Positions 57,654-57,667 of a stretch of 64,000 nucleotides of DNA are shown in pieces (within the stretch, counting starts at the first letter, position 1; every line of letters starts with the position of its first letter). The position numbers were made by a program, and so were the translations under genes. Location of the stretch: NCBI RefSeq assembly GCF_056746865.1, contig NZ_CM163382.1, one strand, 5' to 3'. The notes beneath the pieces are model-generated. The model searched no databases, had not been told where the DNA came from, and was given only the letters and a program-made list of their open reading frames with translations.

Positions 57654-57667
57654 CTAAATCGATTTAG
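57654..57667. promoter_or_regulatory. Perfect 14-bp palindrome ctaaatcgatttag upstream of the porin gene (candidate repressor operator)
   Basis: Read directly, about 40-50 bp upstream of the porin ATG; function inferred. Confidence 0.35.

What the first reader, a model, noticed from the sequence alone, without database searches (positions are those of the whole stretch)
57654..57667. Perfect 14-bp palindrome upstream of the porin gene
ctaaatcgatttag sits between the fructokinase stop and the porin start at a position suited to an operator for a LacI/GalR-type repressor controlling the porin.
Basis: seen in the sequence. Interest (0 to 1): 0.3.

Follow-up and report, generated by a model that had tools for sequence, protein, structure and literature searches.

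The report
Orphan sucrose-repressor operator before porin gene
The 14-bp palindrome is a real copy of the binding site for the sucrose-regulon repressor ScrR, carried along with a fructokinase-porin gene pair that was grafted onto a raffinose island without the repressor gene, so it is an ordinary, known kind of regulatory site that has probably lost its regulator.

Summary
The palindrome CTAAATCGATTTAG is at 57654-57667. It lies 48 nt after the fructokinase stop and 37 nt before the porin ATG; both genes are on the minus strand. Palindromy alone is unremarkable: the window has 8 perfect 14-mers against 3.8 expected.

The motif is specific. Canonical scrK-scrY spacers in about 80 species carry CTAAAnCGnTTTAG, the ScrR (LacI family) operator, and a matrix built from those sites scores this one at 22.9 bits. 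That is the top hit in the window, and 0 of 200 shuffles reach it.

It is a ScrR-type site, not a RafR-type site.

The context is degenerate:
- There is one operator instead of the usual pair.
- About 60-70 nt holding the canonical -35/-10 are missing.
- No scrR, scrA or scrB lies in the island.
- At least 77% of island-bearing E. coli genomes show no second scrK-scrY-type match, and so no detectable canonical scr locus.
- One Salmonella copy has a broken palindrome.

The best reading is an inherited, now largely orphan operator. It would block porin transcription only if ScrR, or possibly the paralogues MalI or Cra, is supplied in trans. This is a known kind of element and of low interest.

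The parts
57654..57667 (.). ScrR-type operator, CTAAATCGATTTAG. It is a perfect palindrome with a central CG and an ATCGAT core in place of the usual ACCGGT.
   Evidence: Sequence read. ScrR-operator matrix gives 22.9 bits, the unique top hit in the window. It is one base (G9 to A) from CTAAATCGGTTTAG, found in scrY promoters that have scrR in cis.
57617..57715 (-). The 99-nt scrK'-scrY' spacer. It is about 60-70 nt shorter than canonical scrK-scrY spacers and lacks one operator and the canonical -35/-10.
   Evidence: Alignments A1. Canonical spacers are 160-170 nt with two operators 58-60 bp apart.
57643..57671 (-). The only sigma-70-like candidate in the spacer, GTGACT-17-AACAAT (8 of 12). 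The operator fills its spacer. It is weak and unverified.
   Evidence: Permissive scan. The standard scan found none at 9 of 12 or better. The candidate falls below threshold in the Salmonella variant (GTTACT).
57624..57628 (-). Shine-Dalgarno-like AAGGA, 7 nt before the porin ATG.
   Evidence: Read directly from the sequence.
56120..57616 (-). ScrY-type sucrose or carbohydrate porin (498 aa), the gene immediately downstream of the operator.
   Evidence: LamB-family hit. It is 76% identical to ScrY of an E. coli scr plasmid and 65-82% identical to ScrY of other Enterobacterales. Public sources name it carbohydrate or sucrose porin.
57716..58642 (-). scrK-type fructokinase (308 aa), the gene immediately upstream.
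   Evidence: NF006957 fructokinase, 477 bits. It is 69% identical to ScrK of L002.
56091..56112 (-). GC-rich hairpin CGCTCCCGG-tgta-CCGGGAGCG, 8 nt after the porin stop. It is the likely 3' end of the module.
   Evidence: Alignment A3. Island copies diverge 90-185 nt past the porin.
59803..59823 (-). Terminator-like hairpin between the invertase stop and the crr-like gene. It may insulate the porin module from the rafA promoter.
59833..64000 (-). Raffinose genes upstream: GH32 invertase (59833-61263), raffinose/oligosaccharide permease (61260-62552) and alpha-galactosidase (62592 onward, cut by the window end). rafR and its operators lie just beyond the window.
58672..59784 (-). crr-like PTS IIA gene (59254-59784) and a split DUF2913 gene, located between the raf genes and scrK'.

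Best explanation
The palindrome is a ScrR-class operator, that is, a binding site for a LacI/GalR-family dimer of the fructose/sucrose-repressor subfamily. It was inherited with a scrK-scrY (fructokinase-porin) module that became appended to a raffinose (rafRABD) island.

In canonical sucrose regulons, two such 14-bp sites flank the scrY promoter. ScrR, encoded at the end of the same locus, binds them and is released by fructose or fructose-1-phosphate.

Here only one site survives. The canonical -35/-10 segment and the second site are gone, and no scrR gene accompanies the module.

The site most likely works only conditionally. When a ScrR is supplied in trans (a co-resident scr regulon or plasmid), a dimer on the palindrome would occlude the weak promoter-like elements that overlap it. 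It would also act as a roadblock 37 nt before the porin ATG.

In the majority of hosts, which lack scr, it is an unoccupied or weakly occupied relic.

Shown: motif identity, position, absence of the partner operator and promoter, and absence of scrR in cis. Inferred: binding, and its consequence for transcription.
For: 1. Motif. Four canonical scr loci carry CTAAACCGGTTTAG twice in the scrK-scrY spacer and once before scrK. Across 80 species loci the same motif recurs, ending about 102 and about 43 nt before the scrY ATG, with scrR in cis in 78 of 80. The window site scores 22.9 bits on that matrix, against a training median of 26.3. It is the unique top hit in 64 kb, and 0 of 200 shuffles reach it.
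2. Natural variation. The base flanking the central CG varies among real operators (C, T, A and G all occur). CTAAATCGGTTTAG, one base from the window site, occurs in L002, L009, L030 and L081. A9 occurs in the scrK operator of L002.
3. Position. The site ends 37 nt before the ATG, against 40-49 nt for the proximal operator elsewhere.
4. Precedent for a single operator. L030 and L081 are scrK-scrY-scrR loci with one intact operator.
5. Orphan status. tblastn finds no ScrR, ScrA or close ScrB homologue in the window or in the full island copies L001 and L008. At most 41 of 181 island-bearing genomes can have a second scrKY-type match. APEC O2-211 has a CRISPR array at the queE site, the scr-negative state described in PMC11251922.
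6. No sign of constraint. Between the two island variants, spacer divergence is 2.0%, against 1.0-1.3% in the flanking genes, and one substitution hits the palindrome. The RafR operator cores are unchanged.
7. Literature. PMC11251922 summarises the mutational evidence that these repeats are ScrR operators and that fructose/F1P are the inducers. PMC6547410 shows that ScrR operators placed in and upstream of a promoter give fructose-inducible repression in E. coli.
Against: - No binding or expression data exist for this site.
- The palindrome is perfect and is intact in all but one of the 14 copies whose spacer sequence I read. This could reflect maintenance, although the copies are at least 98% identical, so the comparison has little power.
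- The source chromosome shows a second scrKY-like match that I could not locate, so ScrR in trans is not excluded there.
- A terminator-like hairpin after the invertase means the porin module may need its own promoter. If the weak GTGACT-17-AACAAT element is that promoter, an operator sitting exactly in its spacer looks designed rather than vestigial.
Confidence: 0.65

Rival explanations
1. The site is a co-opted operator. It is now read by a host-encoded paralogue of ScrR. One candidate is MalI, whose operators have the core TAAAACGTTTTA. The other is Cra/FruR, whose box is TGAAWCGWTTCA and which responds to fructose-1-phosphate. Either would tie porin expression to host sugar status without a dedicated repressor.
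For: - The K-12 malI-malX spacer has two copies of GATAAAACGTTTTAyC. They score 17 bits on the ScrR matrix and differ from the window core only at the bases flanking the CG.
- MalI and ScrR share the SLVL end of the recognition helix.
- The window site has one mismatch to the Cra consensus RSTGAAWCSNTHHW (PMC5829826). The Salmonella Saintpaul variant CTGAATCGATTTAG matches it perfectly.
- Deleting cra lowered scrA and scrB mRNA by 25-32% in E. aerogenes, and a TAAAACGTTTTA element was noted in that promoter (PMC4521459).
- LacI-family heads cross-bind operators that differ by 2 bp (PMC6547410).
Against: - The one mismatch to Cra is the G of TGAA, which is present in both fruB operators. Those operators score only 7.9 bits on the ScrR matrix.
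- The residues I take, from general knowledge of LacI-family DNA recognition, to be the specificity positions of the recognition helix differ: Cra R,T,Y; ScrR K,A,L; MalI V,S,L.
- MalI operators also differ at the outer flank (GA..TC against AC..GC).
- The E. aerogenes effect is small, was not shown to be direct, and goes in the direction of activation.
- No binding data exist.
Confidence: 0.17
2. The site is an auxiliary RafR operator, which would place the porin under the raffinose repressor encoded at the head of the island.
For: rafR lies in the same island (L008 4479-5489). RafR operators share the inner AAWCGWTT core with the palindrome.
Against: - RafR operators read CCGAAACGATTCGG, so 4 of 14 positions differ, all at the outer bases that differ most between the operator classes compared here.
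- RafR is about 25% identical to ScrR and has a different recognition helix (VTTVSRAL).
- RafR sites are reported only as pairs 21-22 bp apart, which suggests obligate cooperativity (PMC4052901). Here there is a single site 7 kb from the rafA promoter.
Confidence: 0.04
3. The palindrome is a chance occurrence with no protein-binding meaning.
For: Perfect 14-bp palindromes are not rare in this window: 8 observed against 3.8 expected.
Against: The motif is identical in all 12 conserved positions to a family-specific operator. It sits in the homologous spacer upstream of the homologous gene. No shuffle out of 200 reaches its matrix score.
Confidence: 0.03
4. The palindrome acts at the RNA level, as a hairpin in the scrK'-scrY' intercistronic transcript (terminator, processing site or translational element).
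For: It lies in a transcribed spacer 37 nt before the start codon.
Against: - The predicted fold leaves the palindrome unpaired, and the region's z-score is -0.18.
- The stem would be 5 A-U-rich pairs with no U-tract.
- Rfam has no match at E of 1 or below.
Confidence: 0.02

Closest known systems
ScrR operators of the scrY promoter (pUR400 / Klebsiella pneumoniae scr regulon; Cowan 1991 and Jahreis & Lengeler 1993, as summarised in PMC11251922)
   Same: It is a 14-bp inverted repeat, CTAAAnCGnTTTAG, with a central CG. It lies in the spacer between a scrK-type fructokinase and a ScrY-type porin, about 40 nt before the porin ATG.
   Different: There is a single site rather than a pair 58-60 bp apart. 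The core is ATCGAT rather than ACCGGT, and A at position 9 was not seen in any of the roughly 150 scrY-promoter sites sampled. The canonical -35/-10 between the operators is missing. No scrR, scrA or scrB is in the locus, and the module is fused behind raf genes.
Minimal scrK-scrY-scrR loci of Cedecea sp. and Klebsiella sp. BIGb0407 (L030, L081)
   Same: They have one intact operator, 42-43 nt before the porin ATG, and no scrA or scrB. The operator CTAAATCGGTTTAG is one base from the window site.
   Different: They keep scrR immediately after the porin and have a good TATAAT downstream of the operator. Their porin is only 71% identical.
RafR operators O1/O2 of the rafA promoter
   Same: Both are LacI-family operators in the same island, and they share the AAWCGWTT inner core.
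   Different: The outer bases are CG and not TA. RafR operators occur as a closely spaced pair flanking the promoter, and their repressor is unrelated at the recognition helix (PMC4052901).
Cra (FruR) box and MalI operators of E. coli K-12
   Same: Both regulators are LacI-family repressors; NCBIfam groups ScrR with the fructose repressors (TIGR02417) and gives a weaker MalI hit. Their palindromes are built on TnAAWCGWTTnA. The window site is one mismatch from RSTGAAWCSNTHHW and two symmetric core changes from TAAAACGTTTTA.
   Different: The site lacks the conserved G of the Cra half-site. It also differs from MalI operators at the flanking GA/TC and at the bases next to the CG. Neither regulator is known to control a porin of this type.

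Membership tests
ScrR operator (LacI/GalR family, fructose/sucrose repressor subfamily) | 14-bp inverted repeat CTAAAnCGnTTTAG with a central CG | tested here: met
   All 12 specified positions match. The site scores 22.9 bits on a matrix of 119 distinct sites, and 0 of 200 shuffles reach that score.
ScrR operator (LacI/GalR family, fructose/sucrose repressor subfamily) | Located in the scrK-scrY spacer, about 40-50 nt upstream of a ScrY-type porin start | tested here: met
   It lies 37 nt before the ATG of a porin 65-82% identical to ScrY. The upstream gene is a scrK-type fructokinase.
ScrR operator (LacI/GalR family, fructose/sucrose repressor subfamily) | Paired operators 58-60 bp apart flanking the -35/-10 of the scrY promoter | tested here: not met
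   There is only one site. The spacer is 99 nt, against 160-170 nt in canonical loci, and no canonical core promoter is present.
ScrR operator (LacI/GalR family, fructose/sucrose repressor subfamily) | Cognate scrR gene in the same locus | tested here: not met
   tblastn finds no ScrR-like gene (the only LacI-family hit is RafR, ~25% identical) in the window, L001 or L008, whereas 78 of 80 canonical loci have one.
ScrR operator (LacI/GalR family, fructose/sucrose repressor subfamily) | Bound by ScrR and released by fructose or fructose-1-phosphate | not testable with these tools
   This needs a gel shift or footprint. Only literature on canonical sites is available (PMC11251922, PMC6547410).
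RafR operator | CCGAAWCGWTTCGG motif in pairs 21-22 bp apart at the rafA promoter | tested here: not met
   There are 4 mismatches in 14, all at outer positions. The site is single and lies about 7 kb from rafA (PMC4052901).
Cra (FruR) box | Match to RSTGAAWCSNTHHW, including the TGAA half-site | tested here: inconclusive
   The window site has one mismatch, at the conserved G. The Salmonella variant matches perfectly. The fruB operators score only 7.9 bits on the ScrR matrix.
MalI operator | GATAAAACGTTTTATC palindrome | tested here: inconclusive
   The core differs symmetrically at the bases flanking the CG, and the outer flank also differs. MalI sites score 17 bits on the ScrR matrix.
Intrinsic terminator / structured RNA element | Stable hairpin (with a U-tract) or a match to a known RNA family | tested here: not met
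   The palindrome is unpaired in the MFE structure (z = -0.18), and Rfam gives no hit.

The most novel reading that the evidence does not exclude
The orphaned ScrR-type operator has been captured by a host global or chromosomal LacI-family regulator. The candidates are Cra, responding to fructose-1-phosphate released from raffinose or sucrose breakdown, and MalI. A horizontally acquired porin would then be wired into host sugar sensing without carrying its own repressor. Under this reading, the A-to-G change in the Salmonella copy, which creates a perfect Cra box, would be an adaptive step in that rewiring.
Probability: 0.15. Interest if true: 0.4.

Novelty: new member of a known kind. Interest (0 to 1): 0.2.

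Why it matters
The finding has modest importance. It shows how a regulatory site travels with a gene fragment during mosaic island assembly and can be stranded without its regulator. This is useful for annotating the raffinose/sucrose-porin island, which occurs in 181 of the 5,426 complete E. coli genomes searched. A 2026 study linked a porin gene it calls rafY (annotated 'sucrose porin precursor') to chicken-source E. coli (PMC12987596), though I could not confirm it is this gene. It also flags a possible point of cross-talk when the island meets a sucrose regulon or host paralogues. It does not reveal a new mechanism.

Tried and rejected
1. Distal or proximal operator. I tried to decide whether the surviving site descends from O1 or O2, or is an O1/O2 recombination fusion. 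MAFFT aligned it to O2 against diverse relatives and to O1 against the closest relatives. Flank identities anchored at the operator are 0.17-0.40, which is near random. The distances to the kinase stop (O1-like) and to the ATG (O2-like) fit a fusion, but this stays unproven.

2. RNA hairpin or known RNA family. Rejected.

3. RafR as the binder. Rejected on motif, on recognition helix and on the pairing rule.

4. Further copies of the site or half-site in the window. None were found. The only distant relatives are 8246 (3 mismatches) and 49468, a Cra-type box in an unrelated spacer.

5. A closer donor lineage. The genome scan gave nothing above about 82% porin identity outside the island itself, and no other species has the crr-DUF2913-scrK-scrY arrangement.

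6. Primary papers. Ulmke 1997 (RafY) and Jahreis & Lengeler 1993 are not held, and the supplementary operator table of PMC6547410 is not held. My recollection that RafY of pRSD2 is unrelated to LamB/ScrY could therefore not be checked. Public sources do not call this porin RafY.

7. The second scrKY-like match in the APEC O2-211 chromosome. I walked to the queE site and found the scr-negative CRISPR configuration. The second match itself was not located.

8. A selection signal from polymorphism. Five independent spacer polymorphisms were seen, and one falls in the palindrome, against 0.7 expected. This is uninformative.

Full report
**Observation**

The + strand at 57654-57667 reads ctaaatcgatttag, a perfect 14-bp palindrome. 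Both neighbouring genes are on the minus strand.
- The ORF at 57716-58642 is a fructokinase (NF006957, 477 bits).
- The ORF at 56120-57616 is a LamB-family porin.
- The palindrome lies in the 99-nt spacer between them, 48 nt after the kinase stop and 37 nt before the porin ATG.

Palindromy by itself is not exceptional. The window has eight perfect 14-bp palindromes, against 3.8 +/- 1.9 in shuffles.

**Genomic context**

Upstream on the minus strand the order is:
- an alpha-galactosidase, cut by the window end;
- an oligosaccharide/raffinose permease;
- a GH32 invertase;
- a crr-like PTS IIA gene;
- a split DUF2913 gene;
- the kinase and the porin.

IS1414 and IS3 debris and a group II intron follow.

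The same block occurs at 99% identity or better in 181 of 5,426 complete E. coli genomes, mostly on the chromosome. It also occurs on IncK, IncF and other plasmids of E. coli and Salmonella. The window is identical over the queried 1.4 kb to E. coli APEC O2-211. In that genome a LacI-family gene (rafR) sits just upstream of rafA, beyond the window's end.

Copies of the island lose homology 90-185 nt after the porin, directly behind a GC-rich hairpin. The porin is therefore the last gene of the conserved module.

**What the palindrome is**

The porin is 76% identical to ScrY of an E. coli scr plasmid and 65-82% identical to ScrY of other Enterobacterales. The kinase is about 69% identical to ScrK.

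In four canonical scrK-scrY-scrA-scrB-scrR loci, the scrK-scrY spacer (160-170 nt) carries CTAAACCGGTTTAG twice, and a third copy lies before scrK.

A scan of one genome per species returned 80 loci from Enterobacterales and Aeromonas:
- About 65 of them have two such sites 58-60 bp apart.
- The sites end about 102 and about 43 nt before the scrY ATG.
- A scrR homologue lies within the fetched locus in 78 of 80, usually about 4.4 kb downstream.

PMC11251922, citing Cowan 1991 and Jahreis & Lengeler 1993, identifies these 14-bp repeats as the ScrR operators flanking the -35/-10 of the scrY promoter. It states that the downstream one overlaps the transcription start and that fructose or fructose-1-phosphate is the inducer.

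The window site matches all 12 conserved positions of CTAAAnCGnTTTAG. I built a symmetrised matrix from 119 distinct sites:
- The window site scores 22.9 bits, against a training median of 26.3.
- The next best hit in the 64 kb scores 11.5 bits.
- None of 200 shuffled windows reaches 22.9; the maximum is 21.4.

The only peculiarity is the ATCGAT core in place of ACCGGT. The base next to the central CG is naturally variable: C, T, A and G all occur. CTAAATCGGTTTAG, one base from the window site, occurs in promoters that have scrR in cis (L002, L009, L030, L081). A at position 9 is seen in a scrK operator. A single G-to-A change, which also perfects the quasi-palindrome, is enough to derive the window site.

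**What is missing**

- Relative to canonical spacers, the window lacks about 60-70 nt, comprising one operator and the -35/-10 segment. Whether the survivor is the distal site, the proximal site or a fusion of both cannot be resolved. The two alignments disagree, and the flanks are near random identity.
- No sigma-70-like site at 9 of 12 or better exists on the minus strand between the invertase and the porin.
- The only 8-of-12 candidate in the spacer is GTGACT-17-AACAAT, with the operator filling its spacer region. Canonical scrY core promoters themselves score only 8-9 of 12, so this candidate cannot be dismissed or trusted.
- A terminator-like hairpin lies between the invertase and the crr-like gene, so read-through from the RafR-controlled rafA promoter is not assured.
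- tblastn finds no ScrR, ScrA or close ScrB homologue in the window or in two full island copies.

**Who could bind**

*RafR* is unlikely.
- Its operators upstream of rafA are CGAATCGTTTCG and CGAAACGATTCG. They differ from the palindrome at the outer bases.
- Its recognition helix (VTTVSRAL) is unlike ScrR's (KATASLVL).
- RafR sites are reported only as pairs 21-22 bp apart (PMC4052901).

*ScrR in trans* is possible only in a minority of hosts.
- From the match counts, at most 41 of 181 island-bearing genomes can contain a second scrKY-type locus.
- In APEC O2-211 the queE-adjacent site holds a CRISPR array, the scr-negative state described in PMC11251922.
- A second scrKY-like match reported in that chromosome was not located.

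*Two host paralogues* have related operators.
- MalI: the K-12 malI-malX spacer holds two copies of GATAAAACGTTTTAyC, which score 17 bits on the ScrR matrix.
- Cra: the fruB operators GCTGAAACGTTTCA and GCTGAATCGTTTCA score 7.9 bits.
- The window site has one mismatch to the Cra consensus RSTGAAWCSNTHHW (PMC5829826), at the conserved G.

**Conservation**

The palindrome is intact in the E. coli and Salmonella copies sampled. Other spacer polymorphisms fall outside it.

The most diverged copy, a Salmonella Saintpaul plasmid, has only two differences in 221 nt, and both are at the site. GTGACTAAATCG becomes GTTACTGAATCG. This has three consequences:
- The palindrome is broken.
- The ScrR score drops to 20.2 bits.
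- A perfect Cra-consensus match is created.

Spacer divergence between the two variants (2.0%) is no lower than in the flanking genes (1.0-1.3%), while the RafR operator cores are identical. The data are too few to distinguish drift from adaptation. They give no evidence of purifying selection on the palindrome.

**Alternatives at the RNA level**

The predicted fold leaves the palindrome unpaired (z = -0.18). Rfam finds nothing in the region.

**Conclusion**

The site is a ScrR-type operator at the homologous position upstream of a ScrY-type porin.

In this island it is stripped of its partner operator, its canonical promoter and its repressor gene. The most likely present-day status is a conditionally functional or vestigial operator. 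It would block porin transcription by promoter occlusion or roadblock if ScrR is supplied in trans. PMC6547410 shows this geometry to be workable for ScrR operators.

A smaller possibility is capture by MalI or Cra. This is a further, degenerate instance of a well-known element and of low general interest.

Noticed in passing
window 49465-49484: TCACTGAAGCGATTCAGTTA is a near-palindrome that matches the Cra consensus RSTGAAWCSNTHHW perfectly on the minus strand (ACTGAATCGCTTCA). It lies in the divergent spacer between a D-lactate dehydrogenase gene (47435-49132, minus) and an LctP-family lactate permease gene (49564-51117, plus), so it may be a genuine Cra site.
   Followed up: partly
window 59803-59823 (minus strand): A terminator-like hairpin, ACTGCCGTC-ggt-GACGGCAGT with a T-rich tail, lies between the GH32 invertase stop and the crr-like IIA gene. 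It probably marks the end of the classical rafABD operon. The appended crr-DUF2913-scrK-scrY module behind it has no recognisable strong promoter.
   Followed up: partly
window 56091-56112 (minus strand): A GC-rich hairpin, CGCTCCCGG-tgta-CCGGGAGCG, lies 8 nt after the porin stop. Independent copies of the island (E. coli chromosome, IncK plasmid, Salmonella plasmid) diverge 90-185 nt beyond it.
   Followed up: partly
window 57646-57651 (+ strand): A perfect TTGACA hexamer abuts the palindrome on the opposite strand. No usable -10 lies 16-18 nt downstream, so it is probably not an antisense promoter.
   Followed up: partly
window 58672-59248: The DUF2913 gene between the crr-like gene and the fructokinase is split into two ORFs (67 and 103 aa) in most copies examined, so it is probably a pseudogene. 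A plasmid-style raffinose island that carries its own PTS IIA(Glc)-like gene is unusual.
   Followed up: no
window 35864-35879 and 43696-43711; also 13660, 15745, 47399: The same perfect 16-bp palindrome, TTCTGCCATGGCAGAA, occurs twice 7.8 kb apart, which suggests a repeated element. Three other perfect 16-bp palindromes occur elsewhere in the window.
   Followed up: no
L030 and L081 (Cedecea sp.; Klebsiella sp. BIGb0407), about 3900-7700: These are minimal scrK-scrY-scrR loci without scrA or scrB. They have one intact operator and a decayed distal one, and unrelated genes (malic enzyme, tyrP) flank them. I did not find this scr architecture described in the papers I read.
   Followed up: partly
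L007 8430-8443 (K. quasipneumoniae plasmid): A perfect ScrR-type site, CTAAACCGATTTAG, lies about 0.9 kb downstream of a different carbohydrate porin, in an alpha-glucosidase/PTS locus that has its own LacI-family gene.
   Followed up: no
window 52116-55883: A group II intron reverse transcriptase/maturase sits inside an IS3 remnant, and a truncated IS1414 (IS256 family) copy abuts the porin's downstream region. This marks the island's right-hand junction in this genome.
   Followed up: no
window 57670-57706 (minus strand): An imperfect hairpin, CCCGUAAC...GUUGCGGG, is predicted in the transcript between the kinase stop and the palindrome. It has no U-tract, and the regional fold is not better than shuffles.
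   Followed up: partly
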